A DNA stretch of 64,000 nt from positions 16,717 to 80,716 of the forward strand of contig JBBTSZ010000002.1 of NCBI GenBank assembly GCA_038064495.1, written 5' to 3'. The translations under genes were made by a program, and so were the position numbers. Below the pieces are notes generated by a model that did not search any database, was not told the DNA's origin, and saw only the letters and a list, made by a program, of their open reading frames with translations. Source of the DNA: Patescibacteria group bacterium. Its GTDB lineage: Bacteria; Patescibacteriota; Minisyncoccia; Phycocordibacterales; Phycocordibacteraceae. Numbering within the stretch: the first letter of the stretch is position 1; each line of letters starts with the position of its first letter. Below, one piece after another: positions 5,595 through 51,288 of this stretch.

Positions 5595-6686
5595 CTAGTG
5601 GAGGGGCTCACGGTACGGGTCTGCACCATAGCTTTCCACAGGATTACTAGGAGAAGCTGCTGAAACTTGCTGCGCAGGAAGAGGTGGAGCGGTAACCGCT
5701 GAGTGTGCAGCAGGTGCTTGAGGACCACCAAACCACGAAGAAGTGCTTTGTTCATGTGGATGAAGCTTTTCTTCCTCCATATCATGAGCCATCGTCCGCA
5801 TTCTTGGCTGTGAAGATTGTGGATTTGGAACGTAGGTATCCGCAGGTGGATTCGGCCTTAGGACAGCTACTTCAGGAGGGACGGGTGCTTGTAGCGGAGG
5901 GGTGACGACCGGCGGTGGTACTGACTGAGCTTGTACCGAAGGCCGAGCAGGAGGTGCCGGAACTACAGGAGGGATAGGTGCTGGAGTCACGGCCGGGGAG
6001 GAGTTCTTCAACATGGAAGGTATTTCAAGGTCATGCATTGGGACGCTAAATCTCTCCGCAAGTGACTTTGCGGAAGAAGCCGTTCCAGTAGGGGTCGAGT
6101 TAGGTGTAATTAAATTAATAGAACGTGGAGGAGTTGTCTCAGCGGGAGCTGAAGGAGCGACAGGAGCAGGGCTCGGTGGAACTATTGCCGGCGCGGGAGG
6201 AGGCGCTGCTGAAATGGCTGGAGGATATGGTGGAGTGCCGGTCGGTAAATTTTGCGGAACTTGCGGCCTCAGTGGAGGCGGAGTAACAGCTATAGGAGTA
6301 ACTACAGGCATTTTCTGAGTAATAGTTACAGGAGGTATCTCAACTGCAGGTGCCCCACTCACTGCTCCAGCCTCTTTCACTTTCTTATTAAGTGGCACGA
6401 ACACCTTCTCATTCAAATCCTTTACGAGATGTTCTGCTACGTCAGCGGGAAGTCCAAGTTCAAGTAGCCCACCATAAAACTCTGTAGGACTTACTAAACC
6501 AAGTAAAGTATTTCGAATTAGTCCCGTTACATTACCAACTATATCTACATGTAGTTGGTAGTTCTTCTGAAGATTAATAACAAAATCAAGCACAGTTTCA
6601 CCACTTAATTCTCCTTGCACAGCCAGCGGAGCCTTGCTGTAGGCTTCTAAAACTTCTTGCTCAGTGAATTGTTTCATATCAAACAC
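5595..6686 (-). CDS. proline-rich protein (N-terminal globular domain + ~250 aa P/A/V-rich region)
   Basis: ORF 363 aa; stop/start abutting neighbours. Confidence 0.5.
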   Translation of the reverse strand: MFDMKQFTEQEVLEAYSKAPLAVQGELSGETVLDFVINLQKNYQLHVDIVGNVTGLIRNTLLGLVSPTEFYGGLLELGLPADVAEHLVKDLNEKVFVPLNKKVKEAGAVSGAPAVEIPPVTITQKMPVVTPIAVTPPPLRPQVPQNLPTGTPPYPPAISAAPPPAPAIVPPSPAPVAPSAPAETTPPRSINLITPNSTPTGTASSAKSLAERFSVPMHDLEIPSMLKNSSPAVTPAPIPPVVPAPPARPSVQAQSVPPPVVTPPLQAPVPPEVAVLRPNPPADTYVPNPQSSQPRMRTMAHDMEEEKLHPHEQSTSSWFGGPQAPAAHSAVTAPPLPAQQVSAASPSNPVESYGADPYREPLH

Positions 6687-9374
6687 CTAAATAATTCCAC
6701 CCCAGCGCCTCCCTGCATCTGGATTCAAAGCTACCCCGCTGGTCATTCCAGTAAGAGCATCAAACCTAACAACTTCAGGTGAAGGTGCACCCGGTGCGGT
6801 GATGAGATTACGTATGTTGGTGATCGCAGTTCCGCTTAATTTATTTGGATCAAGAGCTGCAAGCTGTTCGCCTCGCATAGACCGAATAACATGATTCTGC
6901 TCAATAACAGAAGTAGGAAGCTTACTCACGCTCTCGTTTGTCAAAATGTTCAGTGTGTTCGGTGCATTCGCAACCGAGAAAAGATGGTTCCGGACATCGT
7001 TCATCGTGTTTGCACTCAATTTTCCAAAATCAATATTGTTAATTCGACCCGATGCAGTTAGAGCGTTCAGAGTATCTGTCTTCTTTAAGTTGTATTCAGG
7101 TATTTTCTTGAGAGCATCATCCGACATCGCATCAATGGTTACCCGAGCTCGTACCGGGTCATTGAAACGGTCATCACGAGCCTGTTGGAAGCCGTCTCGA
7201 ACGGACTGAGCGATATTTTTATTACTACCCACTTTATCGGCTTGGTCTTCCCGAACTACTGAGACAAAGTCGTAATCGCTTAATAACGAAGCACTTGCCT
7301 TCGATTGTGCAATTTGCTCAAAGCCTCGTTCACCCAATTTCTTAATCGCTGCATTAGCAGCATCACGAGCAGCAGTCCGTATCGGTGGAGCTTTCGTTGC
7401 ATCATTTGCTATGGCGAGACTCTCGCGAATCCCAACGTGGCGATTATCAAGCAGTCTTGCCTTCAGGTCCTCTGGCGTATCCTTGTACTTTAGAAGACTG
7501 CCAATTTTCTCATCAGAGAAAGCTTCAGCAACAGCTCTCCCTCCTTCTTGTACGGCATGTGATTTAAGTAGTTGTTCTTCTGAAAGCCCGTTAAGGAAAG
7601 TGGTTGTCTCTGCACTAAGAGCTCCTGCACGCGCTTCATCCTCAAGTTTTTGGAACGCCACTTCGTCGTCATACTTTTTCTTTAGCCCCTTGCCATACGT
7701 CCCGCTCTTAGCATCTGCAAAGACATGTCTAGTATCACTAAAGGTCGCGCCCTTGGATGGAATTGCTCCCGCCTTTATATCAGCGAGACCGAGTGCAGTC
7801 TGTGCAAGAGGGAGCCGTCGCGCATCAAGATTAGCACTTTGAAGCGGGCGCAGGATACGATTTACGGCAACTTGCCCGACCTTACCCCCGAACCCAGTTT
7901 TTTGCTGGAAACGTTGGAGTCCATACGCGTATCCTCCTACAGCCAGATTTGTTCCACGCGTCATGGTTCCAAACACAAGCGCACTCGCCGAGTTAACTGC
8001 AAAGTTTGAACCAAGCACACCCATACGACGTGAGGCGATGAGAGACATCATCATGAATCCGATAACAATGAAGAACAACACAAACGCTTGAAGATTTTGC
8101 GAAGCTCCAGCTACTGCCCCACCTGCGACAGCCTGCCCCAGATCACCCGTGGTACCAAGTCCAGAGCCAATCTTGATACTAATAAGAATGAGTAGCAGGT
8201 ATACCGGAGCAAAAAATGATTCGTTAAGAAGAAGACTCCACCAACGTTCAGCAAGTTTATGAAGTAAAGGCACTGCCATACCCGCAAAACCTATAGGAGA
8301 CGTCACAATTAAGAACACGAGAACAACCGCACGGCTGATAAGCATAATAGTCCCTGCGAGCAAGACAATCGCCACAATAGTGATGAGCAAAGAGTAAATC
8401 AACAAAAGAGTGATTTTCTCAAGAGGAGAACTACCTGTGGTAGAAGGGTCCGATCTAAAACCAAGAAACGTAGAACCACCGGTTAATTGCATAATCTGCC
8501 CCGAAATACCTTCATTAGCGCACGTCGTTGAGTCAGCACCAGTACAATTTGTACCAGCCTGTTCCGCAAGGACTGATGAGAAACCGTTAGCCACGTCAAT
8601 CACTGCTTCTGCAGCAAACAAACTAAAGTTAAGCAGTATCGCAAAGATAATAAGAGCAGGCAGCGCTCGCTTTGCCGTGAACTCCGACCGTTCAAGATTT
8701 AAAATAGTACTGACGCCCATGAAGATGAATCCGAATAAGAGAACTATATTGCCAACGTCTCGGAGTACTCCCCATGCAATCAAAAGACCTTCCGAGTTAC
8801 CAAAGTACTGAGCAAACTCAAATACCGTTTTGATAATGGTCCAGTTAAAAACGACACCGACAATCGTAAGAATCCATCCCGCAAGCGTAAACACTGCATA
8901 GCTAAGTGGGTAGAGTGTGACAGCAAGAAAACTATCTGCCAACCATCCAAACACGTCCGGGAATACTGAACTTGTTTCACTCGTACAACTTCCGTTCGCT
9001 GCACAGTTCGTGGTCGTACTCGCGAAATAGTTATTTTGAGAACCGGTTGAACCTAACAGTTTTCCAGAGGCATCTTTTGCAGTACACCCCTCATCCGAGA
9101 CGGCTGCTTCAGCACCACCACCAGCGGTACAGGTTGCGGTGCTACCAGCAGGATTTGTACAAGTATAGACCGTACTACCGAAACTGATCTCTGAAGTACA
9201 CGTCCAACCAGTACCGTACTTACCGGGGTTATTTGTGAGTGCCTCGGGCACGGTAGCTGCAAGGGTAATAGGGGCAACGCCAAATAAAACAAACAAGAAA
9301 GCAGTCCCCAGAAGAGCTCTACCCATCTTTTTTTGTATTAGGAAAGTGTTCACGGCAAGTGAAGCTATATACAA
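6687..9374 (-). CDS. VirB6/TrbL-like polytopic membrane protein with signal peptide and long soluble C-terminal extension
   Basis: 895 aa; N-terminal signal, Cys/Thr-rich ectodomain, then >=6 hydrophobic helices, then ~400 aa charged/alpha-helical tail; topology typical of VirB6-family channel proteins (inference). Confidence 0.5.
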   Translation of the reverse strand: MYIASLAVNTFLIQKKMGRALLGTAFLFVLFGVAPITLAATVPEALTNNPGKYGTGWTCTSEISFGSTVYTCTNPAGSTATCTAGGGAEAAVSDEGCTAKDASGKLLGSTGSQNNYFASTTTNCAANGSCTSETSSVFPDVFGWLADSFLAVTLYPLSYAVFTLAGWILTIVGVVFNWTIIKTVFEFAQYFGNSEGLLIAWGVLRDVGNIVLLFGFIFMGVSTILNLERSEFTAKRALPALIIFAILLNFSLFAAEAVIDVANGFSSVLAEQAGTNCTGADSTTCANEGISGQIMQLTGGSTFLGFRSDPSTTGSSPLEKITLLLIYSLLITIVAIVLLAGTIMLISRAVVLVFLIVTSPIGFAGMAVPLLHKLAERWWSLLLNESFFAPVYLLLILISIKIGSGLGTTGDLGQAVAGGAVAGASQNLQAFVLFFIVIGFMMMSLIASRRMGVLGSNFAVNSASALVFGTMTRGTNLAVGGYAYGLQRFQQKTGFGGKVGQVAVNRILRPLQSANLDARRLPLAQTALGLADIKAGAIPSKGATFSDTRHVFADAKSGTYGKGLKKKYDDEVAFQKLEDEARAGALSAETTTFLNGLSEEQLLKSHAVQEGGRAVAEAFSDEKIGSLLKYKDTPEDLKARLLDNRHVGIRESLAIANDATKAPPIRTAARDAANAAIKKLGERGFEQIAQSKASASLLSDYDFVSVVREDQADKVGSNKNIAQSVRDGFQQARDDRFNDPVRARVTIDAMSDDALKKIPEYNLKKTDTLNALTASGRINNIDFGKLSANTMNDVRNHLFSVANAPNTLNILTNESVSKLPTSVIEQNHVIRSMRGEQLAALDPNKLSGTAITNIRNLITAPGAPSPEVVRFDALTGMTSGVALNPDAGRRWGGII

Positions 9375-10891
9375 GGGCTAGCAGCAACAGTAAGCATTTT
9401 TGTGAAGAGCGATGGGGTTGTCTCAGAATCAGTAGCTACACTTTGTTCTTGGGCATACGTAATGTCGCTAATACTTGGCATAGAATTACTACCCAAAAGT
9501 GTCTGATAGGCTGCAGATGCTGTTGCAACTGCGCTTGTCTGGGTCTTTGCACTACCTCCAGACGCCCCGAGGTCAGCAATGATTTGATCAATAGTGTTAA
9601 TTGCAGCCCCAGCATTTGCGATTGCTGTTGTACCTTGCGTAATAATCGTCTGAACTTGAGACGCATTTGGACTATTCTGTGCACAGCTTGAGTTTTGGAT
9701 AGCAGTTTTTGCAGAATTTGCCGCGTCAGCTATCTTTGTCCAGTTTGTTTGGTACGCTTGCAACTGTACTTTTTGCTGCCCAAGCGTCGTAACAAAGTTG
9801 GTGCTTAAGTTCGAGTTGGCCGAGGCGTTACTATACTGAGTAGAATCAGCAGCCTGGTCTATAAAGGAACGTCCTCCTCCTGAACTTGGTTGAGAAAGGC
9901 CTCCAAGACCTGTTCCCCCAACTACGTTACTAACTAATTGTCCGATAAGCGCACCCACAATCTCGTTTAGTTCATCAGAAGAAGTAAGCTGGTCTACCGA
10001 ACTACCCAGGGTTTTGGTGAGTTGATCGTGAATGATAGCTCCTGGAGTGACAATATTTTGATGCAGACACGGAACAGTTCCTGATAGTTTTACCGACGGA
10101 GTTAATACTACTGGTGAAGTAGGTGTTGTAGGAGTGCCGTTGAAATTAAGAATTCCACCAGCCTGATTTACAGTTGTAGATGTATTTGAGGAGGCACAAT
10201 CACCCTGCCATGAGAGGAAACCATTTCCCCAACTCAGTTTTGTTTTCTCAGTATCTACCTGATTCGCTATTTGTTGTTTGAGGGCGTCGCGCTGAAGTAA
10301 ATCAGCACCAAATGGATTGTTTGCCGGGTTTGCTATTGCTGAAAAGAAAGCATCCCAACCACCCCCTTCTACAAATCGACCTTCATAGAGTGCATTCGGA
10401 TCATTGCTTACCTGATTTAGCGTATACGGATTTTGAAGGAAGAAACCATCACGTGTTGTTGAGATGAAGTAATCTCTACGGAGGGCAGCTGTTAAAACAT
10501 CTTGAAACGGTGACGTGATTGCTGTGTTTGTTTCAAGCTGATTCAAGAAATCATTAGCAACGGTGTCCCCCACCTTTAGGAGTCGCGTATCAAGATCAGT
10601 AATAAAAGCGGGAGAACCTTTAAAGCCAGAGTTAATCCAGTTAACGACACTCTTTGTTACCGACTGAAGTGCCACCTTACTTACGATGTAGGCAAGCGGA
10701 TCAAGAGCAAATTCCTTAACGTTCAAGGTAGTGTTTTGAACTGCTGAAAGTGAGTTAACAACATGGTTAGCTGGGTCGTACACAATGAACGCCCGTGTCG
10801 TACGAGGAAATGAGAGTACACCAATAAAGACAATACTGATAAGTCCTACACAAGTACGAAGCAAAAACTGATTTAAAGTAGTGGAACTCAT
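9365..10891 (-). CDS. membrane-anchored extracellular protein (N-terminal TM anchor), unknown function
   Basis: ORF 508 aa; overlaps neighbours by 10 and 4 nt. Confidence 0.5.
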   Translation of the reverse strand: MSSTTLNQFLLRTCVGLISIVFIGVLSFPRTTRAFIVYDPANHVVNSLSAVQNTTLNVKEFALDPLAYIVSKVALQSVTKSVVNWINSGFKGSPAFITDLDTRLLKVGDTVANDFLNQLETNTAITSPFQDVLTAALRRDYFISTTRDGFFLQNPYTLNQVSNDPNALYEGRFVEGGGWDAFFSAIANPANNPFGADLLQRDALKQQIANQVDTEKTKLSWGNGFLSWQGDCASSNTSTTVNQAGGILNFNGTPTTPTSPVVLTPSVKLSGTVPCLHQNIVTPGAIIHDQLTKTLGSSVDQLTSSDELNEIVGALIGQLVSNVVGGTGLGGLSQPSSGGGRSFIDQAADSTQYSNASANSNLSTNFVTTLGQQKVQLQAYQTNWTKIADAANSAKTAIQNSSCAQNSPNASQVQTIITQGTTAIANAGAAINTIDQIIADLGASGGSAKTQTSAVATASAAYQTLLGSNSMPSISDITYAQEQSVATDSETTPSLFTKMLTVAASPCI

Positions 10892-11889
10892 GGTTTCGTG
10901 TTTTGTGTTACCGCAGCAGTTTTAAAAGCGGCTCTCATAGCGGAACCAGTTGCTCCATCCGGAATCACAACTGCTTCAGAATCAAAAACGGTATTAAGTA
11001 GGCTAAGACTCCTCGCCATTTGTTGAAGCGTATTTTCATACGAACTAAGACCAATCATCGCGCGAAGCGGGTCCACTTTAATGCTCGCAAGGTCCAAAAT
11101 AACGTCGCTCATGTGCATGAGTGAGTTTGCAAGTCCAAGGTGTGCCGCCGCGGCTTCTTTCGGTACTGATATTTTCATCATCGCCTGTGCAATCTTCTGA
11201 TAATCCGTACCAATAAGAGTTACTTTTGCTAATGATGCAGCATCCCCTTTATTTACTGCGTCTGAAAAGTATTCAACTTCAGACTTCGTAGTCGGTGTGG
11301 TGTTAGCAGCAAAGGTTTTTTCTAGATCAGCCGCATAACGCGTAAGTGCTTCAGGACCCTCACCGGACACGCGTATCTGCCCCTGATTAAAGGCGTCCGG
11401 AACGACCTGGCTCGCCTTCAAATCTCCAACCCCAGCTTCCACAAACTTCACAATATCAGCCTGGGTAGGAGGAGTCGCGCCTCGCGTGCTGAGGTACTGC
11501 TCAAATAATTTGCGAGAAAACTGGTCGGTAACGGTAGTTGCTCCAGCAGTAACGCCAGGAATAGAGCTTATGTTTACCGGTGTGGTTGTTGCAGTTGCAA
11601 ACTTTGGCTTCACGAGGCCTTGGTTTACTGCTTCCCCATCGGTTACTTGTGCGTTTACGGAGTGAGCATTGTCCGGGTCGGTGCCATAGAGCGCTTCCTC
11701 CCAGTCCGGAAGGCCATCAGTGTCAGTGTCTTTTGCAGCATAGGTAACCAGGAGGTCGTGGGTTGATTCTGCGTCAACGGTTTTCGTGAAAAAAGGAACC
11801 GGACCGGAGACGACATAGGCCGAACCAATGAGCACTATGGAGATAGCTGATGCTGAAATGATGAGGGTGGTACGGGTAGAATAAGCCAC
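10888..11889 (-). CDS. membrane-anchored protein with Asp-rich (DTDxDGxPDWEE) calcium-binding-like motif; first gene of cluster
   Basis: ORF 333 aa; N-terminal hydrophobic helix; motif DTDTDGLPDWEEALYGTDPD. Confidence 0.5.
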   Translation of the reverse strand: MAYSTRTTLIISASAISIVLIGSAYVVSGPVPFFTKTVDAESTHDLLVTYAAKDTDTDGLPDWEEALYGTDPDNAHSVNAQVTDGEAVNQGLVKPKFATATTTPVNISSIPGVTAGATTVTDQFSRKLFEQYLSTRGATPPTQADIVKFVEAGVGDLKASQVVPDAFNQGQIRVSGEGPEALTRYAADLEKTFAANTTPTTKSEVEYFSDAVNKGDAASLAKVTLIGTDYQKIAQAMMKISVPKEAAAAHLGLANSLMHMSDVILDLASIKVDPLRAMIGLSSYENTLQQMARSLSLLNTVFDSEAVVIPDGATGSAMRAAFKTAAVTQNTKP

Positions 11890-20571: not shown

Positions 20572-21489
20572 ATGGATGCCGAAACGCTTAAGCGACAATT
20601 CCTTGAACACACAGAAATCGAGCGCGGACGTGCCGTAAAGACGATTCAAAACTACGACCACTACCTCACGGTGTTGTTTCGGGAAATGAAGATAGCCAGT
20701 GTTATTGATATTACTGAGGAGAAGATTCGCGAATTCCGCTTGTGGTTGAATCGACAACCCGGAACAGGGAGCGACACCATGAAGCGCCGCACGCAAAACT
20801 ACTATCTCATTGCACTACGTGCTTTTCTGAAATATCTCCGAAAACGAGGCATAGATGGCCTGAACCCTGAGCGTATTGAGCTTGCCAAAGTACCTGAACG
20901 CTCGCTTGACCTTATTACCGCGACCGAGCTTGAGCGCCTGATGGAAGCCCCAAAGAACGCTATGGAAAAGGAACAGAATCCTGAGAAGGCGCTTCGGTAT
21001 GCCCGCGATACAGCCATTTTAGAGCTCCTTTTCTCCACGGGACTTCGTGTTTCTGAGCTCTGTGCACTTAATACCGACATAGATTTATCTCGAGACGAAA
21101 TCTCGGTTCGCGGAAAAGGAGACAAAGTTCGGGTGGTATTCCTATCCCCTGCTTCAAAAGACGCAGTTCGTGCGTATCAGAAACTCCGCAAGGATATGGA
21201 GGAGGCCCTCTTTCTTGAGGGTAGACCTGATAAGCTCCATCGCATTACGCCCCGTGATATACAGCGCCACATTAAGACGTATGCGGCGCAGGCAGGCATC
21301 ACCAGCAAGGTTACGCCCCACACGCTTCGGCACGTGTTCGCCACTGACTTGCTCAGTAATGGAGCTGATATTCGCTCAGTCCAGGCACTTCTGGGCCATG
21401 CCTCCATCACGACTACCCAGATTTATACGCACGTGACCGATGTGCACCTCCGAGAGGTACACAAACGTTTCCACTCACGACAAAAATAA
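20572..21489 (+). CDS. tyrosine site-specific recombinase, XerC/XerD-like
   Basis: Catalytic motifs HTLRHVFAT and LLGHASITTTQIYTHV. Confidence 0.85.
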   Translation: MDAETLKRQFLEHTEIERGRAVKTIQNYDHYLTVLFREMKIASVIDITEEKIREFRLWLNRQPGTGSDTMKRRTQNYYLIALRAFLKYLRKRGIDGLNPERIELAKVPERSLDLITATELERLMEAPKNAMEKEQNPEKALRYARDTAILELLFSTGLRVSELCALNTDIDLSRDEISVRGKGDKVRVVFLSPASKDAVRAYQKLRKDMEEALFLEGRPDKLHRITPRDIQRHIKTYAAQAGITSKVTPHTLRHVFATDLLSNGADIRSVQALLGHASITTTQIYTHVTDVHLREVHKRFHSRQK

Positions 21490-24608: not shown

Positions 24609-25292
24609 ATGAATTCTAAGGTTCGAGAAAAGGAACTCGCTATCGCCTTGAGAAGGAAAGGCCTTACGTACAGAGAAATTCTCGAGCGAGTACCTGTTGC
24701 AAAGAGCTCAATCTCGCTTTGGCTTAAAGACTTTCCATTGACAACAAAAGAGAAGGAAATACTTAAGAAACGGAAAAATACGGACATGACAAGGTGGAGA
24801 GCCATGGCGGGAGCCGCGCTTAGTCAGAGAAGAGTTGAGAGAGACAAAGCACTTTTCCTCGTTGCTCGCGAAGAGTTCCAGACGGCAATTAGAGAGCCTT
24901 TATTTCAGGTTGGTATAGCCTTGTATTGGGCGGAGGGAGCAAAGAGAGCTAGTACGTTTAGTTTCATTAATTCTGATGTAGATATGACAATTCTTATGCT
25001 TGACTGGGTAAGAAAATATCTAGTTCTCGCAGACGAAAACCAAATACGAATGAGGGTCTTCACACACAAGGCATTCGAGCATGAGCACCATGAGGTATGG
25101 TGGTCGAAGCAATGCGGTATTCCACTCGATAGGTTTGGAAAGACTATCTTTAAATCACAAAACGGACTTATAGTTAAGAAAAGACCGAATTATAAGGGCT
25201 GCGTTCGAATAGAACTTGGCAAAGTAGCTCATATACGGAAAATGGCCTACTGGCAACAGATGCTCATTGAATACTACAAGAAACAAAGGTAA
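24609..25292 (+). CDS. HTH-domain protein, possible LAGLIDADG-type homing-endonuclease-like fold
   Basis: N-terminal HTH (GLTYREILERVPVAKSSISLWLKDF); motif GIALYWAEGAK resembles LAGLIDADG block; adjacent to tRNA cluster. Confidence 0.4.
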   Translation: MNSKVREKELAIALRRKGLTYREILERVPVAKSSISLWLKDFPLTTKEKEILKKRKNTDMTRWRAMAGAALSQRRVERDKALFLVAREEFQTAIREPLFQVGIALYWAEGAKRASTFSFINSDVDMTILMLDWVRKYLVLADENQIRMRVFTHKAFEHEHHEVWWSKQCGIPLDRFGKTIFKSQNGLIVKKRPNYKGCVRIELGKVAHIRKMAYWQQMLIEYYKKQR

Positions 25293-27862: not shown

Positions 27863-27933
27863 GCGGGATTAGTTTAATGGTAGAACATCAGTTTTCCAAA
27901 CTGAGAGCAGGAGTTCGATTCTCCTATCCCGCA
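27863..27933 (+). tRNA. tRNA-Gly (anticodon UCC)
   Basis: Acceptor GCGGGAU/AUCCCGC, anticodon arm UCAGU-UUUCCAA-ACUGA, T-arm AGGAG-UUCGAUU-CUCCU. Confidence 0.9.
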
Positions 27934-28203
27934 CATGTCAGTCTGACGGACATTTTGCCCTCTTGCGAAAAACACCCTTTTGTTGAGCCGTCCTCTGCGA
28001 TCTCGTCCTTCAGGCCTCTCTTATTGAGACGTATGGAGAATAGGACTTTTTTTCTTGTCCAATCATCAAGAGGTTATTCGAATTTGTAGATTCTAACCCT
28101 ACCAACCCACAAATATTCACCGATGGAACTAATACCTCAGTGACAGGGCCAACACAATAAATCAAGGATTTGAAAAAAATCACTTTGTGTTGTCATTTGA
28201 GTT

Positions 28204-28797
28204 TTGGCTATGGGTTTAACTTTAGACACATTGGTGTATCATTTCCACAGGATTCATGATTTTGGGGAGGATCTTATGCAAGCACCGATTATTGCTGCCA
28301 TTGTTGGTGGATTGTTCGCCCTATTTGTAACTTTATTTGGCCATGCATATCTTACCTTTCTGCAGCTAAAGAAGGAGAAACACCTATCTTTGACGCTAGA
28401 AAGAAGACGTATATACAGTGAGCTGTGTGCAAGTCTAATGATTTCTTCATTCGACATGATTACAACTGACGAGGAGGGACCTGAGAACACAAGATTTCAG
28501 CGTCACGCGTGGGTTGCAGCAAATACAAAACAATTAAGTGATCTACAAGCAAAGATCAACGCTGCTTCGTTCTATGCAAGTGATTGTCTTAGAAAGGAGT
28601 TTGCTTTTTTGTCTGAGTTCCTGCACGTACTCATTATTGGAGGATCATATTCACGTGGCACGAAGGGAGACACAAGTGACGAGTTCCTGGAGAAACACTT
28701 GTATATTGAACATGACAAAACGATGGAGGATATATTTCAGGAGCCTTGGCAGCGTGCATTAAAATTAATGAAAAAAGAAGTTGGCCTCATTGATTGA
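28204..28797 (+). CDS. hypothetical single-pass membrane protein
   Basis: ORF 197 aa with one hydrophobic helix (IIAAIVGGLFALFVTLFGHAYL); AT-richer context. Confidence 0.4.
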   Translation: MAMGLTLDTLVYHFHRIHDFGEDLMQAPIIAAIVGGLFALFVTLFGHAYLTFLQLKKEKHLSLTLERRRIYSELCASLMISSFDMITTDEEGPENTRFQRHAWVAANTKQLSDLQAKINAASFYASDCLRKEFAFLSEFLHVLIIGGSYSRGTKGDTSDEFLEKHLYIEHDKTMEDIFQEPWQRALKLMKKEVGLID

Positions 28798-28806
28798 GTA
28801 ATATTA

Positions 28807-28831
28807 GGGGGCACCTTCGGGTGCCTCTTTC
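28807..28831 (+). terminator. intrinsic terminator
   Basis: GGGGCACCTTCGGGTGCCTCTTTCTT. Confidence 0.55.
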
Positions 28832-28840
28832 TTATGTCGA

Positions 28841-28870
28841 GGGACTTAGGGACTACAGGTACGTAATTCA
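28841..28870 (+). repeat. 30-bp direct repeat, copy 1 (GGGACTTAGGGACTACAGGTACGTAATTCA)
   Basis: 27/30 identical to copy at 30445-30474; both intergenic. Confidence 0.6.
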
Positions 28871-28972
28871 AGTTTTTTGCTTTGGTTTACGCCCTTCCTT
28901 AGCTCCATTCTTATACTTGGTCTACGCAACGCTCACGATTGCTTTTTGTTCCCACAGGAGTATCGTTAAACC

Positions 28973-29614
28973 ATGAGAGCTCGTACTTCACTCCTAGTAA
29001 TAGCCAATGTTTTCTTCCTATTTCTTGCAGTCTTCTGTGCAGTTCCAACGGACGTTCAGGCGTATGTTTCGGTTAAAGGATATTACAAAGCCAACGGCAC
29101 TTATGTAGCGCCCTATGTTCGCAGTAATCCAAATGGTCTGAAATACGATAATTACGGGTATAAACCTAGCCAAGGACTATATAATTCAACATATGGAACA
29201 AAAGGTGCAGCATGGGACACTCCGACCTACGTAACTGATCCCAACTATTACCAAGGTAAAGCTCTCTATGAACAGAGCAAAACAGTAGTAGGAAGCTCTT
29301 ACTCAACATATTCGAAGATACCTGCAATTCACCCCGCAAGAAACGTGTCGTACGTGACAAGTGCCTGGGTATCGAACAACCCAAACACACCCTGCAACCA
29401 GGCAACACTGAGAGCAGCTGAACGTGCTGAATGCATCACGTACAGGGCGCTATTTAATTCATATAAGTGGAATGTCACAACAACTGAATTTGATAACATT
29501 CATTATCGATGGGATCCGGAATTAAATATGTCGTATATGTGTTCCGATGGATATTCGTTCCGCTATGACACTGCTACTGGGAAACCAAAAGAGCTGTGTT
29601 ATCCAGATTTATAG
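28973..29614 (+). CDS. small secreted Tyr/Asn-rich protein
   Basis: Signal peptide MRARTSLLVIANVFFLFLAVFCAVPTDVQA. Confidence 0.5.
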   Translation: MRARTSLLVIANVFFLFLAVFCAVPTDVQAYVSVKGYYKANGTYVAPYVRSNPNGLKYDNYGYKPSQGLYNSTYGTKGAAWDTPTYVTDPNYYQGKALYEQSKTVVGSSYSTYSKIPAIHPARNVSYVTSAWVSNNPNTPCNQATLRAAERAECITYRALFNSYKWNVTTTEFDNIHYRWDPELNMSYMCSDGYSFRYDTATGKPKELCYPDL

Positions 29615-29699
29615 TACTGACAAGGTCCTAAGAGCTACTTAGATAGTACTGTCTTCTAGGGATCTAGATTCAATAACGCTCATAATCTTCTCTATCACC

Positions 29700-30044
29700 T
29701 TAGTAGTCGGTAGATTCTTGTTCCTCGTATGAGTCTCGTTGATCTACATACTCCTGACAACCCTCTATGAACGAATTTGAGTTACCGTCGCAATCGCTGA
29801 CGTCATTCTCTTCAGCCCATTCGTATCCAGCGGAATGTCCAGTTCCGTCGTCATATGGGTTTTCCGGCTCAGGAGCGTAATTTTCATTGACGTACGAGTC
29901 TTCGTATACGCCGTAATGATCACCAGAGACACTACCTCCTGAGGAATCGTCAGAGAATAAGGAATATGTGCCCCAGACAACTAGGCTCCAAAATGCCACC
30001 CCGACTATTATTTCCCAAGCCCCTTCTCCTCGTAGAGGTCTCAT
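29700..30044 (-). CDS. small acidic protein with N-terminal TM helix
   Basis: ORF; likely start MRPLRGEG...; coupled 3 nt downstream of preceding minus-strand gene. Confidence 0.4.
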   Translation of the reverse strand: MRPLRGEGAWEIIVGVAFWSLVVWGTYSLFSDDSSGGSVSGDHYGVYEDSYVNENYAPEPENPYDDGTGHSAGYEWAEENDVSDCDGNSNSFIEGCQEYVDQRDSYEEQESTDY

Positions 30045-30046
30045 AT

Positions 30047-30385
30047 TTATTTGAATAGCCAACTAAAGACTGACGCCCAGCGATTTTGGGATAGCCCATT
30101 TGACATGTTAGCTGGCAAGACTTTCGTCACTGCCGGAACTCTTTGTGTTTGATGATACTCAGCGCACTTCACCATAGAGGAATACCTAACGGAGCTGTTT
30201 CTCCAGCCATCATTACAGATGGCGCTCCCATCAGAGTCTGGACCAGCTGAACAGCTGACCCCACCATGACCAGAGCAAGCCCCGCTCGTGGCTAGTGCTA
30301 AAAGTGGAGAGGTAAGAAAGAGAACTGCAAGTAGACCTGCGCGGCGGACTGTGGGGTATACGCTACTTTGGAGGTTCCTGGACAT
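30047..30385 (-). CDS. small secreted Cys-containing protein
   Basis: Start chosen at Met giving signal peptide MSRNLQSSVYPTVRRAGLLAVLFLTSPLLALA; the longer ORF to 30610 would run through the direct repeat. Confidence 0.4.
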   Translation of the reverse strand: MSRNLQSSVYPTVRRAGLLAVLFLTSPLLALATSGACSGHGGVSCSAGPDSDGSAICNDGWRNSSVRYSSMVKCAEYHQTQRVPAVTKVLPANMSNGLSQNRWASVFSWLFK

Positions 30386-30444
30386 ACCAAAAGCATATAC
30401 CTCAGGAGAGATTAAACAAATGAATCCCAGATGGGCGCTGAACA

Positions 30445-30474
30445 GGGACTTAGGGACTACAGGGACGTGATCCA
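30445..30474 (+). repeat. 30-bp direct repeat, copy 2 (GGGACTTAGGGACTACAGGGACGTGATCCA)
   Basis: See copy 1. Confidence 0.6.
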
Positions 30475-30798
30475 CTGCACATACACTCACCTTAATACCC
30501 AGAGTACTTCTTCCGCTTCGGCTTCTGCACTTCCTCCACCTCAGGCTCAAACATCTTCCGTATGCTCCTGAAGTCAGCCAGAATGACAGAGTAGCCTGGA
30601 CTGAACCCAATGTCTTGAATGTCCTTTACGAGACGTTCCACCTCGGATCTGGTATCTTTATCCTCATTAGAAAAAGTTCTAACGTCCTCTACGAACCTGC
30701 ACACTCTAGTGCTAGTTCAGGTGACCGAGGTGCCTAGCCCTTAACTGCTCGCTGCAGGTGTAAACTGAAGGCAGACATTACCAATAGCGACATTCGAT

Positions 30799-31311
30799 AT
30801 GGCAACGAAAAAACAAATCGGGACAGCAAAAAAGAATGTTCGCAAAGCGCAAGCGGCATGGAAAGGTATGACTAAACGCCAGCACGCGCTCGCACAGCCT
30901 GAAGGTCGCAATCGCAAAAAGCCGGGAACGACCGGCAAAGGCAAGTTTTATCATATCGAAATTCGTCCGAAGTCGGACTTTACCTCGTTTCGCACCCAGG
31001 ATGTCGGAAAGAAAGGCGGGCTTGAGCGCATCGCGGGCCGCCGATCAAGCGGAAGCTGGGCGACCGCTACGTGGCTCATTTCGAAGGATAAGGCGCACTT
31101 AAGCGCGAAGGGAAAGCTTGTCGTTACCGACAAGAAAGATAAGGCATCGCTCGCCAAGGCAATCCGAGGAAGGGTTGTACATGTGAAGGGCGACATCTTT
31201 ACTGCGCATCCGGCGAAGAATGTGCCGGAAGCATCTAAGCCGACGTCCGCGATGAGACGGGCACAGGCGGCGAATATCAAGAAGGCGCAAGCGGCGCGTA
31301 ATAAAAAATAA
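30799..31311 (+). CDS. lysine/arginine-rich basic protein, unknown function
   Basis: ORF 170 aa, highly basic termini. Confidence 0.45.
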   Translation: MATKKQIGTAKKNVRKAQAAWKGMTKRQHALAQPEGRNRKKPGTTGKGKFYHIEIRPKSDFTSFRTQDVGKKGGLERIAGRRSSGSWATATWLISKDKAHLSAKGKLVVTDKKDKASLAKAIRGRVVHVKGDIFTAHPAKNVPEASKPTSAMRRAQAANIKKAQAARNKK

Positions 31312-31312
31312 T

Positions 31313-31723
31313 ATGAAAGGATTTGTAACCAACATCGAGCAGGTCACTCTTGAGAACGAGGACTTCCGCCGCGTCATCTATACCGCAAAGAACTGCCAAC
31401 TCGTGCTCATGTCACTTCCTGCCGGAACGGATATCGGAGAAGAGGTGCACACCGTCGATCAGTTCCTACGTATTGAAGAGGGCGAGGGCCAAAGCATTCT
31501 CGATGGTGTTGATCGTTATCTAACGGACGGGTCCGTCATTGTGGTTCCCGCGGGCGTTCGCCATAACATCATCAATACCTCCAAGAGCGAAGCGCTCAAA
31601 CTTTATTCCCTCTATGCGCCGCCGCACCACAAGGACGGCACCGTCCATGCGACGAAGGCCGACGCGGGAAAAGATAACGAGCACTTCGACGGCATCGTTA
31701 CTGACGACATTGGGCAAGCATAG
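31313..31723 (+). CDS. cupin-domain protein
   Basis: G(x)5HxH...E / PxGxxHxxxN cupin motifs (VHTVDQ..., VVPAGVRHNIIN). Confidence 0.65.
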   Translation: MKGFVTNIEQVTLENEDFRRVIYTAKNCQLVLMSLPAGTDIGEEVHTVDQFLRIEEGEGQSILDGVDRYLTDGSVIVVPAGVRHNIINTSKSEALKLYSLYAPPHHKDGTVHATKADAGKDNEHFDGIVTDDIGQA

Positions 31724-31868
31724 AACGCGGTCAAGTGTGTCGCATTTCTCGCTTTTCCGTTTTGGAGCCTAGACCGAGATGCCTCGACTTTGGTCTGGGG
31801 AATTTTCGCCAAGGAATCCTTGAAGTGCCTCACTCTACCCAGTTCGAGACTGAGGTGGGGTACAAAAA

Positions 31869-31899
31869 GAAAAGCCCCGCTCTAGAGCGGGGCTTTTCA
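31869..31899. terminator. bidirectional intrinsic terminator
   Basis: AAAAGCCCCGCTCTAGAGCGGGGCTTTT. Confidence 0.7.
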
Positions 31900-49198: not shown

Positions 49199-50683
49199 AT
49201 GCAGGACCTGCTCGCACTCCTTGCACTCATCAGTTTTGCACTCGGCGTTGCGTGCGCGTCAATAGTTATAGTTCCGCACGTGGGACTGTATTTTTTGCTT
49301 CTTCTTGCCCTCGTCTGCTTTGGGGCGTGGTTCTTTGCGCGAAAAGATTGGTATCTGATTCCTTCCCTCTTTCTCTTATTCCTTGCGTTTGGCATAGGGA
49401 GAGTCATGCTTACTCCACAAGAACTACCGCATACGTTTGAAGAACGAGTCGGAACAAAGGTAACGCTTGTTGGTACGATTGCGAGTGATCCTGATATTCG
49501 CGAGACGACCCAACGGATTACAGTCCGAATACAGGAGGGGAGTGAACACACCAAGGTCCTTGTCGTCACTGACCGATACACAGCGTTTTCCTATGGCGAT
49601 CAGATTTCAGTTGAAGGTATGCTGACGCGACCGAAACCCTTTGAAACTGACGGAGGTCGGGAGTTTGCGTATGACCAGTTTCTCGCAAAGGACGGAATCT
49701 TTTCCATGATTAATTTCGCACGCGTTGAAAAGACGGGCATGACAGACTCACTGCTCATGCGCGGACAGCAACTTCTCTACGAGGGTAAACATCAGTTTGC
49801 TAAAGGACTTGAAGCGAGTCTTTCAGAACCACACGCAAGCCTTGCTGAGGGACTCCTTGCAGGAGGGAAACAAGGTCTCGGCAAATCTCTCCTTGATGCG
49901 TTCACCATAACGGGATTACTTCCCATCATCGTTCTTTCTGGCTACAACGTCATGATTGTCGCCGAAGCTATACTTATCGGCTTCTCGTTTTTGAGAAAGC
50001 GCCATGCGCTCGTCCTCGCAACGCTCACCATTATTTTGTTTATTCTCGCAGCCGGTGGAGGCTCGTCTGCAGTACGGGCAGGACTCATGGCTGGACTCGC
50101 ACTCTTTGCACGCATGACCGGTCGCACCTACGACGCACTGCGAGCCCTCGCTGCCACGTTCGTCATCCTGCTTCTGTACAATCCACTTCTGCTTATCTAC
50201 GATCCTGGATTTCAATTCTCATTTGCGGCAACTCTCGGTCTCATTGTCGCGTCCCCACTGTTTGGAAAAAGACTGCTCCGCATTCGCATGAAAAGTATTC
50301 GTGAAGTGCTTTCGACCACGCTTGCCGCACAACTCTTCGTGCTTCCGCTCCTTTTGTATCAAACGGGGAATCTTTCGCTCGTCGCGATTCCTGCAAACAT
50401 ACTCGTACTTCCGGTTATTCCCTTTGCCATGGCGTTCGCTGCAATCGCCGGCGTGGTCGGAATTCTCGTTCCACTAGCAGCTCCTTTCTTTGGACTACCA
50501 GCGTACGCACTCCTTTCATATGTCATCGGTGTTGCCGAGAGCGCCTCTCATATTCCATTTGCGCACGTCATCATCCCGCTCTTTTCTGCAGTTTTCCTGC
50601 TGGTCGCCTACAGCTTGATTGCTGTGCTCGTTGTTCGGTTACAAAAAAGCGCAGCCTCTACGGCTGCGCTCCCTACACCGTAA
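49199..50683 (+). CDS. comEC: ComEC/Rec2-family competence channel protein (OB/DUF4131 + polytopic competence domain, no beta-lactamase domain)
   Basis: N-terminal TMs, OB-like VTLVGTIASDPDIRETTQRITVRI, then ~8 TM helices. Confidence 0.75.
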   Translation: MQDLLALLALISFALGVACASIVIVPHVGLYFLLLLALVCFGAWFFARKDWYLIPSLFLLFLAFGIGRVMLTPQELPHTFEERVGTKVTLVGTIASDPDIRETTQRITVRIQEGSEHTKVLVVTDRYTAFSYGDQISVEGMLTRPKPFETDGGREFAYDQFLAKDGIFSMINFARVEKTGMTDSLLMRGQQLLYEGKHQFAKGLEASLSEPHASLAEGLLAGGKQGLGKSLLDAFTITGLLPIIVLSGYNVMIVAEAILIGFSFLRKRHALVLATLTIILFILAAGGGSSAVRAGLMAGLALFARMTGRTYDALRALAATFVILLLYNPLLLIYDPGFQFSFAATLGLIVASPLFGKRLLRIRMKSIREVLSTTLAAQLFVLPLLLYQTGNLSLVAIPANILVLPVIPFAMAFAAIAGVVGILVPLAAPFFGLPAYALLSYVIGVAESASHIPFAHVIIPLFSAVFLLVAYSLIAVLVVRLQKSAASTAALPTP

Positions 50684-50691
50684 GCGCGCTC

Positions 50692-51288
50692 CTACGAGAT
50701 TGCTTTTGTGTAGCGATTTTCAACTACAGACCAGTTTACATTTGAGAGAAATGCATCAACGTAGGTCATTTTTTCTGCTGGCACATAGTCCACCATGTAG
50801 GCGTGTTCCCACAAATCAACCGCAAGCAGAATAGGAAGTCCTGATAGTTGCCCAAGCTCGTGGTCGTTCACAAAAGCAGTGTGAAGGGTGCTTGCTGAAG
50901 GGTCACTGTAGACCACTACCCAGCCGATGCCGCGAGTGCCGGCAACCTCCTTACTATGTGCGAGAAAACCATCCCAGCTTCCATACTTCTCGTTCACGGC
51001 AGTTTGGAATGCATGGGTCGCTGTCGGCGGAGTATTGCCGCCCTCAAGCTGCTCAAAGTAGTACTCATGCATGCGCATACCATCAAACTCAAAGCCCAGA
51101 CGACGTCTGAGTTCGTTAATGGCGTACGCATTTCCCTCAGCATCCATTTCTTTATACGAAGCAATTTTCTCCATAATCAGATTTACGTGCTTTACGTAGC
51201 CAGCATACAAAGCCAAATGAACTTCAATTTGCTTTGGTGAGAGTCCTTTGAGTTCAGGGAAGGTAAAGGTTCGCGTTGCGTAGATCAT
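50692..51288 (-). CDS. sodA: Fe/Mn superoxide dismutase
   Basis: DxWEHAYY-type motif DLWEHAYM, His ligands. Confidence 0.85.
   Translation of the reverse strand: MIYATRTFTFPELKGLSPKQIEVHLALYAGYVKHVNLIMEKIASYKEMDAEGNAYAINELRRRLGFEFDGMRMHEYYFEQLEGGNTPPTATHAFQTAVNEKYGSWDGFLAHSKEVAGTRGIGWVVVYSDPSASTLHTAFVNDHELGQLSGLPILLAVDLWEHAYMVDYVPAEKMTYVDAFLSNVNWSVVENRYTKAIS

What the first reader, a model, noticed from the sequence alone, without database searches (positions are those of the whole stretch)
27934..30740. tRNA-adjacent AT-richer block with a 3-gene cassette of small secreted proteins bounded by 30-bp direct repeats
This block lies immediately downstream of tRNA-Gly(UCC) and visibly differs in composition from its surroundings. 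Two intergenic 30-mers, 28841-28870 (GGGACTTAGGGACTACAGGTACGTAATTCA) and 30445-30474 (same with 3 mismatches), flank three ORFs of no recognisable family: a 213-aa Tyr/Asn-rich secreted protein, an acidic TM protein and a Cys-containing secreted protein. The repeat contains an internal GGGACT-TA-GGGACT duplication. No integrase is inside. A XerC/D-like recombinase lies ~7 kb away. This may be an att-like or recombination-site-bounded cassette or a hypervariable effector locus.
Basis: seen in the sequence. Interest (0 to 1): 0.55.

Follow-up and report, generated by a model that had tools for sequence, protein, structure and literature searches.

The report
Integrase-less gene islet beside tRNA-Gly
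The AT-richer block is a small piece of foreign DNA inserted at the end of a glycine tRNA gene in a groundwater Patescibacteria (CPR) genome, at a site where related species carry anything from nothing to 8 kb. The 30-bp repeats are real, but they lie inside the insert and are not its borders.

Summary
tRNA-Gly(UCC) is at 27863-27934. A 31-nt direct repeat (28840-28870 / 30444-30474, 28/31 identical) occurs only twice in the window. The block has the lowest GC of any equal-sized window.

In 47 related Paceibacteria species the interval between tRNA-Gly(UCC) and the HU gene ranges from 66 bp to 8.2 kb, with unrelated contents. Here it holds two stacked insertions without an integrase.
It ends in a degenerate copy of the tRNA 3' end.
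- An "E...X" unit (30703-31863) follows it. It has a conserved 35-nt left end and a 95-nt right end. At least eight other genomes carry such units after this tRNA, with different cargo.

The 31-mers are internal to islet-1 and bracket three genes for small exported proteins. All three genes belong to large uncharacterised Patescibacteria families and never occur together elsewhere.

The repeat is absent from 1.45 Mb of related loci and from three public collections. It has no dyad symmetry, and no recombinase gene lies next to it. The Xer gene 7 kb away is a syntenic housekeeping gene.

My best reading is that the repeat marks the junction of a nested insertion, but this is unproven. A duplicated operator or a neutral duplication remain possible. 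Overall this is an ordinary tRNA-linked islet in an unusual phylum.

The parts
27863..27934 (+). tRNA-Gly(UCC). Its 3' end is the attachment point (attB/attL) of the insertions.
   Evidence: ARAGORN and Rfam. Nucleotide homology to about 60 related loci stops at 27934-27938. The tRNA 3' end is duplicated 90-990 nt downstream in 9 related species.
27935..30702 (.). Islet-1: a 2.77-kb AT-richer insertion with no integrase.
   Evidence: No nucleotide or protein homologue in the slot of 80 related loci. Lowest GC of 245 windows and tetranucleotide distance +2.7 sd. Bounded on the right by a tRNA-end-like remnant followed by element E.
28276..28797 (+). TM173: a protein with one N-terminal TM helix. 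It is close to an ORFan and lies outside the repeat pair. An alternative start is at 28210.
   Evidence: Only one distant homologue among 5.8 billion proteins. GC 0.41.
28806..28829 (+). Intrinsic-terminator-like hairpin after TM173, 11 nt before repeat 1.
28840..28870 (+). Repeat copy 1 (AGGGACTTAGGGACTACAGGTACGTAATTCA). Intergenic, 103-133 nt upstream of sec213.
28973..29614 (+). sec213: a Tyr/Asn-rich exported protein. Its N-terminal module of about 90 aa is shared by more than 200 Patescibacteria proteins with varied C-termini, and matches phrog_29674.
   Evidence: A 66% identical homologue sits at a different variable gap in L005, without the repeat.
29700..30044 (-). acid114: a small acidic protein with a single TM helix (pI 4.1).
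   Evidence: 688 cluster representatives at E<=0.001.
30047..30385 (-). cys112: a small exported Cys-containing protein with a DUF3761-like core (ACSGHGGV).
   Evidence: (faint PF12587). Homologues occur in unrelated contexts.
30444..30474 (+). Repeat copy 2 (AGGGACTTAGGGACTACAGGGACGTGATCCA). Intergenic, 59-89 nt upstream of cys112, in reverse orientation relative to that gene.
30492..30704 (-). orf70: a doubtful 70-aa ORF. None of the four assemblies annotates it as a 70-aa gene (L003 has only a longer 187-aa call that overlaps it). Its start overlaps the tRNA-end remnant.
   Evidence: No family hit.
30675..30702 (+). Degenerate mimic of the tRNA 3' end (AGTTCTAACGTCCTCTACGAACCTGCAC). This is the inferred attR of islet-1.
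   Evidence: It aligns in register with the tRNA 3' end of L032 and L020. The last 15 nt match 10/15 at a register fixed by the E alignment. A free gapped alignment is not significant on its own.
30703..30737 (+). Element E: the conserved left end of the E...X unit. In 8 other genomes it directly abuts the 3' end of tRNA-Gly(UCC).
30799..31723 (+). Cargo of the E...X unit: a Lys-rich 170-aa protein (30799-31311) and a cupin (31313-31723).
   Evidence: Absent from the 80 related loci. Cargo differs in every E...X unit.
31768..31863 (+). Element X: the conserved right end of about 95 nt. Its last 23 nt (31841-31863, AGTTCGAGACTGAGGTGGGGTAC) mimic a tRNA T-loop and acceptor 3' strand.
   Evidence: No Rfam family.
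31869..31898 (.). Perfect 15+15 palindrome: the bidirectional terminator of HU. It is the 'old flank' that directly follows the tRNA in relatives with an empty slot.
   Evidence: I5. Compare L049, L068 and L013.

Best explanation
The block is the newer of two insertions without an integrase, stacked at the 3' end of tRNA-Gly(UCC). This site is used repeatedly for insertion across this Paceibacteria lineage.

Reconstructed order: tRNA-Gly | islet-1 (27935-30702) | E-K170-cupin-X unit (30703-31863) | HU terminator. In relatives with an empty slot the tRNA and the HU terminator are only about 66 bp apart.

Each unit ends in a sequence that mimics the tRNA T-loop and acceptor 3' strand (AGTTC...GCAC or ...GTAC). 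That is what site-specific recombination between an element's attP and the tRNA attB would leave behind. The recombinase must have acted in trans or been lost (inferred).

The cargo of islet-1 is four or five small membrane or exported proteins. They probably decorate or modify the cell surface of this episymbiont-type bacterium (inferred from their sequence features only).

The 31-nt direct repeats are internal to islet-1. I read them as the duplicated junction left when the convergent three-gene module (sec213; cys112-acid114) was inserted into the spacer between TM173 and orf70. On that reading the identical 20-nt core is where the crossover occurred, and the diverged 11 nt is a hybrid arm.

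Shown: the slot's variability, the borders, the stacking, and the reality and uniqueness of the repeat. Inferred: the recombination mechanism and the nested-insertion origin of the repeat.
For: Variability of the slot:
- The backbone NusA-PPase-ClpP-RNaseY-HU ... tRNA-Gly(tcc)-trypsin-tRNA-Pro-UPF0102-tRNA-Gly(gcc)-tRNA-Arg-CCA is conserved in 80 related species.
- The HU-to-tRNA interval varies from 66 bp to 8.2 kb. rarA sits there in 32 of 47 species but not here.
- Homology to relatives stops at 27934-27938 and resumes at 31864.

Borders and stacking:
- Window 30688-30737 matches the tRNA 3' end plus the 35 nt that follow it in L032 and L020.
- E...X units with unrelated cargo of 0-5 genes follow tRNA-Gly(tcc) in L020, L032, L098, L099, L101, L106, L108 and L112. 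In each, what follows X (rarA, the mini-element, a terminator) is what follows the tRNA in relatives that lack the unit.
- 16-18-nt direct copies of the tRNA 3' end lie downstream of it in 9 relatives.
- One relative (L060) has a large serine recombinase in the slot next to the tRNA.

Foreign composition: islet-1 has the lowest GC in the window and atypical tetranucleotide use.

The repeat:
- It is significant, has exactly two copies, and both are intergenic.
- The three mismatches cluster in one arm.
- It is absent from 1.45 Mb of related loci and from the genome, metagenome and viral collections.
- L060 shows an analogous 38-nt intergenic direct repeat around a 1.2-kb module.
Against: - There is no integrase in or next to the islet.
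- The tRNA-end remnant is weak: 10/15 at a fixed register, and not significant by free alignment.
- The nearest comparison genomes are only 87-88% identical in RNase Y protein, so the timing is unknown and differential loss cannot be formally excluded.
- All contigs of this population are identical, so no excision or empty-site variant has been seen.
- For the repeat specifically: GC does not change at the repeats. The three enclosed genes never co-occur elsewhere. The repeat has no dyad symmetry or stable fold. orf70, cys112 and acid114 are co-directional and could form one operon that spans repeat 2.
Confidence: 0.7

Rival explanations
1. The 31-mer is a duplicated cis-regulatory site. A DNA-binding protein would recognise the three tandem GGGAC(T) half-sites and co-regulate the two convergent transcription units (sec213 and cys112-acid114).
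For: Both copies are intergenic and lie 59-133 nt upstream of the start codons of the first gene of each unit. The tandem GGGACT-n2-GGGACT-n3-GG(G/T)AC layout resembles a multi-half-site binding site. The 20-nt core is perfectly conserved while the flank has diverged.
Against: The two copies are in opposite orientation relative to the genes they precede. The 8-9-bp spacing does not match the helical repeat. There are only two copies in 64 kb and none upstream of homologues of sec213 or cys112 in other genomes. No regulator gene lies in the islet.
Confidence: 0.25
2. The repeat is a neutral leftover of a local duplication or illegitimate recombination during assembly of the islet in a donor genome. 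It has no present function.
For: Only two copies exist and there is no homologue anywhere. It has no structure. Short intergenic direct repeats are about three times more frequent in these slots than in the conserved backbone: 23 against 7 per roughly 150 kb.
Against: A perfect 20-nt core beside an arm with 3 mismatches in 11 nt is not what uniform decay would give (about 0.05 by chance). Both copies sit exactly in intergenic spacers that bracket whole genes.
Confidence: 0.3
3. The cassette is an IMEX-like element. It would have been inserted by the host XerC/D-type recombinase encoded 7 kb away, with the 31-mers acting as dif-like sites.
For: A Xer-type tyrosine recombinase is present at 20572-21489. 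IMEX elements lack their own integrase and are flanked by direct repeats of about 28-31 bp, one of them degenerate (my own knowledge).
Against: The Xer gene is syntenic (between an Exo_endo_phos gene and rpsO) at 57-76% identity in at least 19 relatives, including ones with an empty slot, so it is housekeeping. The 31-mer has no dyad-symmetric arms around a central spacer (sequence). The local GC skew shows no terminus here.
Confidence: 0.03
4. The block is ancestral DNA that was lost in the sampled relatives, and not an insertion.
For: The closest available genomes are fairly distant (RNase Y protein at most 88% identical). rarA, which is common in the slot, is missing here, showing that deletions do occur.
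Against: It would need loss in all 47 species compared. The block has deviant GC and tetranucleotide use. The sequence that abuts the tRNA in L032 and L020 is found 2.8 kb away from the tRNA here, preceded by a tRNA-end-like remnant.
Confidence: 0.07

Closest known systems
tRNA-linked genomic islands or islets (integrase-mediated insertion at the 3' end of a tRNA gene)
   Same: It lies directly 3' of a tRNA gene. It has atypical composition and is absent from relatives. The same tRNA end is duplicated downstream in several relatives. The cargo is accessory surface or exported proteins.
   Different: It has no integrase. The distal repeat is badly degraded. At 2.8 kb it is very small. The host is a reduced-genome Patescibacteria (CPR) bacterium.
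CIMEs: cis-mobilisable elements formed by accretion at an ICE attachment site, e.g. at the fda locus of Streptococcus thermophilus (my own knowledge)
   Same: The units are flanked by att-like sequences and lack recombination genes. They are stacked in tandem at a single attB. Mobilisation by a recombinase supplied in trans is plausible.
   Different: No cognate integrase-bearing element was identified in this genome, and mobility is not shown. The only link to a recombinase is a serine recombinase in the same slot of one relative (L060).
Replacement or additive flexible genomic islands between conserved flanks, where cargo is swapped by homologous recombination (my own knowledge)
   Same: Conserved flanks (tRNA/E on one side, X/HU on the other) surround completely different cargo in each species.
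   Different: The conserved flanks are only 35 and 95 nt and include a tRNA-end mimic, which points to site-specific rather than homologous recombination.
Integron gene cassettes
   Same: Small gene modules bracketed by short repeats sit in an array next to a fixed attachment point.
   Different: There is no IntI, and no attC-type imperfect inverted repeat. The genes are convergent and appear to have their own expression signals.

Membership tests
tRNA-linked genomic island | Inserted directly at the 3' end of a tRNA gene | tested here: met
   Homology to about 60 related loci ends at 27934-27938, the tRNA 3' end.
tRNA-linked genomic island | Variable presence or content among related genomes | tested here: met
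   The slot is 66 bp to 8.2 kb in 47 species, and none of the islet genes is present in that slot in the relatives.
tRNA-linked genomic island | Atypical base composition | tested here: met
   GC 0.443 is the lowest of 245 windows, and the tetranucleotide distance is +2.7 sd.
tRNA-linked genomic island | Direct repeat of the tRNA 3' end at the distal border | tested here: inconclusive
   30675-30702 is a degenerate mimic: 10/15 at a register fixed by the E alignment, but not significant by free alignment. Clean 16-18-nt copies exist in 9 relatives.
tRNA-linked genomic island | Integrase gene inside the island | tested here: not met
   No recombinase domain in any islet ORF.
CIME / integrase-less accreted element | Lacks recombination and transfer genes but keeps att-like ends | tested here: inconclusive
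   The genes are absent. The left end is the tRNA and the right end is only a weak mimic.
CIME / integrase-less accreted element | Stacked in tandem with another element at the same attB | tested here: met
   Islet-1 is followed directly by an E...X unit of a family found at this tRNA in at least 8 other genomes.
CIME / integrase-less accreted element | Mobilised by a cognate integrase-bearing element | not testable with these tools
   The only lead is a serine recombinase in the same slot in L060. The rest of this genome was not available.
Integron cassette | Adjacent IntI integrase and attI | tested here: not met
   No tyrosine recombinase other than the syntenic housekeeping Xer, 7 kb away.
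Integron cassette | attC: an imperfect inverted repeat that folds as a hairpin | tested here: not met
   The 31-mer has no dyad symmetry. The two copies give different, weak folds (z -1.05 and -2.23).
IMEX (Xer-exploiting element) | Flanking dif-like sites with two dyad arms around a central spacer of about 6 bp | tested here: not met
   The repeat consists of three direct GGGAC units with no inverted arms.
IS element or transposon with target-site duplication | Transposase, terminal inverted repeats and a short (2-14 bp) duplication | tested here: not met
   There is no transposase and no inverted repeats at the module ends. The repeat is 31 nt.
Transcription-factor operator | The motif recurs upstream of co-regulated or orthologous genes and a cognate regulator is nearby | tested here: not met
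   The motif is absent upstream of sec213 and cys112 homologues and from 1.45 Mb of related loci. No regulator lies in the islet. Binding itself is not testable here.

The most novel reading that the evidence does not exclude
Paceibacteria may carry a lineage-wide gene-capture platform at tRNA-Gly(UCC) that works without an integrase of its own. Its units would have a conserved 35-nt left end (E) and a 95-nt right end (X), which ends in a mimic of a tRNA acceptor/T-arm minihelix. Each unit holds interchangeable cargo of 0-5 genes and is stacked by a recombinase acting in trans. On this reading, islet-1 and its module bounded by the 31-nt repeats are further layers of the same process. That would make the locus a functional analogue of an integron in CPR bacteria.
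Probability: 0.25. Interest if true: 0.6.

Novelty: new member of a known kind. Interest (0 to 1): 0.3.

Why it matters
Patescibacteria (CPR) have tiny genomes and probably depend on host cells. How they gain and exchange surface and secreted proteins is poorly known. This locus shows a conventional route, insertion at the end of a tRNA gene, operating repeatedly in one CPR lineage. It delivers small exported proteins from families that are widespread in the phylum but have no known function. The recurring E...X units, with conserved ends and swappable cargo, offer a concrete and searchable marker for accessory-gene turnover in these organisms. The 31-nt repeat itself is a minor, local feature.

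Tried and rejected
- Exact scans for the 19-nt repeat core in genome, metagenome and viral collections gave 0 hits.
- Fuzzy searches (up to 4-8 mismatches) in 105 related loci gave 0 hits.
- Extending the repeat with gaps found nothing beyond 31 nt.
- No ungapped copy of the tRNA 3' end (up to 3-6 mismatches) exists in the window. A free gapped alignment to 30661-30704 is at chance level.
- Rfam at gathering and permissive thresholds finds only tRNAs and terminator-like noise.
- RNA folds of the repeat are inconsistent and weak.
- Strain-level presence/absence cannot be tested. Look-ups of the exact sec213, TM173 and K170 proteins found only contigs 100% identical to the window.
- Co-travel of the three genes: the contexts of sec213 homologues (L005, L086, L088, L090) and cys112 homologues (L094-L097) are all different and lack the motif.
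- Phage origin: there is no DNA or protein match in 50,697 phage records or in IMG/VR. The only link is that sec213's N-terminal module matches a PHROG of unknown function.
- Defence system: no PADLOC hit.
- An apparent tRNA-end-like string at the right edge of repeat 2 (GATCCACTGCACAT) scores at the random level and was dropped.
- Promoter scans gave no convincing sigma-70-type promoter near either repeat.
Full report
**Observation.** tRNA-Gly(UCC) is at 27863-27934. The repeat is real: 28840-28870 and 30444-30474 share 28 of 31 nt. The first 20 nt are identical and all three mismatches fall in the last 11 nt. No shuffle of the window gives a match, and there are only two copies in 64 kb. The motif consists of three direct GGGAC(T)-type units spaced 8-9 nt apart, and similarity does not extend beyond it.

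The block is compositionally odd. 27935-30702 has GC 0.443, the lowest of 245 equal-sized windows, and its tetranucleotide distance is 2.7 sd above the mean. The shift does not track the repeats, however. TM173, outside them, is the most AT-rich gene (0.41), and cys112, inside them, is 0.51.

**Source and genes.** Exact-protein look-ups place the window in a Hainich groundwater Patescibacteria MAG (GCA_964357455.1). All five retrieved contigs are 100% identical to the window, so no strain variation is available.

- sec213 has 211 homologues. A conserved N-terminal module of about 90 aa is fused to varied C-termini, and it matches phrog_29674.
- acid114 has 688 cluster representatives at E<=0.001.
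- cys112 has 31 homologues with a DUF3761-like core.
- TM173 is nearly an ORFan.

Homologues sit in unrelated contexts and never together. There are no hits to defence-system (PADLOC) models or NCBIfam models, and no match to phage or viral records.

**The slot.** Using RNase Y as an anchor I fetched 80 related species. The backbone NusA-PPase-ClpP-RNaseY-HU-[slot]-tRNA-Gly(tcc)-trypsin-tRNA-Pro-UPF0102-tRNA-Gly(gcc)-tRNA-Arg-CCA is conserved. The slot between HU and the tRNA ranges from 66 bp to 8.2 kb in 47 species. It usually holds rarA (32 of 47), which is missing here. None of the window's seven slot ORFs occurs in the slot of any of the 80 related loci; the single hit is a sec213 homologue elsewhere in L005. 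Nucleotide homology to the relatives stops at 27934-27938 and resumes at 31864.

The Xer-like gene at 20572-21489 is syntenic at 57-76% identity in at least 19 relatives, including ones with an empty slot. It is therefore housekeeping.

**Borders.** Window 30688-30737 matches the last 15 nt of the tRNA plus the 35 nt that directly follow it in L032 and L020. So a sequence that normally abuts the tRNA lies 2.8 kb from it here. It is preceded by a degenerate tRNA-end mimic, AGTTCTAACGTCCTCTACGAACCTGCAC, at 30675-30702. The last 15 nt of that mimic match the tRNA end 10/15 at the register fixed by the E alignment. A free gapped alignment is not significant on its own.

**A second unit.** The 35-nt element E (30703-30737) and a 95-nt element X (31768-31863) flank K170 and the cupin gene. 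X ends in AGTTCGAGACTGAGGTGGGGTAC, which aligns with the tRNA T-loop and acceptor 3' strand.

A metagenome scan with the X core returned 15 loci. Ten of them (nine distinct) carry the full X element, and the other five are GC-rich chance matches. Counting the window, I found nine distinct units of the form tRNA-Gly(tcc)|E|cargo|X. They are 292-4563 nt long and hold 0-5 genes, unrelated except for one shared family.

In each case the sequence after X is what follows the tRNA in relatives that lack the unit: rarA, a small tRNA-end-flanked mini-element, or a terminator. Here X is followed by the HU terminator, as in the empty-slot genomes L049, L068 and L013. E...X therefore behaves as an inserted unit at the tRNA 3' end, and the window carries two stacked insertions.

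Two further observations fit recurrent site-specific insertion at this tRNA. Clean 16-18-nt copies of the tRNA end lie downstream of it in nine relatives. A serine recombinase sits in the slot in L060.

**The 31-mers.** They lie inside islet-1. Each sits in an intergenic spacer upstream of a transcription unit, but in opposite orientation relative to those units. They have no dyad symmetry or consistent fold. They are absent from 1.45 Mb of related loci and from three collections. They are also not found upstream of homologous genes elsewhere.

Removing the enclosed module would leave TM173 and orf70 convergent around one terminator, which is a tidy ancestral arrangement. L060 shows an analogous 38-nt repeat pair around a 1.2-kb module. 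I therefore favour a nested-insertion junction, at roughly 0.4 among the readings of the repeat. A duplicated operator and a neutral duplication remain open. A Xer/IMEX origin is unlikely.

**Verdict.** This is a conventional tRNA-linked islet without an integrase, in an unconventional phylum. The '30-mers bound the island' idea is not. The E...X units are the more interesting by-product.

Noticed in passing
window 30703-30737 and 31768-31863; L020, L032, L008, L098, L099, L101, L104-L108, L112: E...X units have a conserved 35-nt left end that abuts tRNA-Gly(UCC) and a conserved 95-nt right end ending in a tRNA T-arm/acceptor mimic. They enclose 0-5 unrelated genes. X has a conserved 3' hairpin and matches no Rfam family. 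The motif GACYGAGRTGSS recurs in E, in the 5' part of X and in the 3' part of X.
   Followed up: partly
L006, L011, L014, L028, L033, L040, L057, L065, L069, L075, L085 (just 3' of tRNA-Gly(tcc)); also L032 and L112 after X: A mini-element of about 130-230 nt recurs. It has a hairpin, an inverted copy of the tRNA 3' end (GGGATAGGAGAATCGGA), a GC-rich stretch, and then a direct 16-nt copy of the tRNA 3' end. It could be a miniature insertion or a tRNA-like hairpin.
   Followed up: no
L060 5230-10827: The same slot in a related species holds a large serine recombinase next to the tRNA. It also has a perfect 38-nt intergenic direct repeat (6231-6268 / 7454-7491) around a 1.2-kb module.
   Followed up: partly
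L005 7151-11680: In a related species the sec213 homologue (66% identical) sits in a different variable gap, between ClpP and RNase Y. Its neighbours are VanY, a SET-domain gene, a RelB/DinJ-like antitoxin and an apparently broken toxin gene.
   Followed up: no
L097 1709-5495: A cys112 homologue lies directly downstream of a bAvd - reverse transcriptase - VWA gene set, i.e. a diversity-generating retroelement locus.
   Followed up: no
window 6687-11889: This is the only other compositional outlier in the window. It holds three large membrane or exported proteins (895, 508 and 333 aa) on the minus strand, with a strong AT skew.
   Followed up: no
window 24609-25292: A 227-aa protein with a weak HTH_23 match lies between the CCA-adding enzyme gene and tRNA-Arg. 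It is present in only a few relatives, which marks a second small variable spot in the tRNA cluster.
   Followed up: no
window about 50000-51000: The cumulative GC skew reaches its minimum here (-1.05) and then rises. This could be a replication origin.
   Followed up: no
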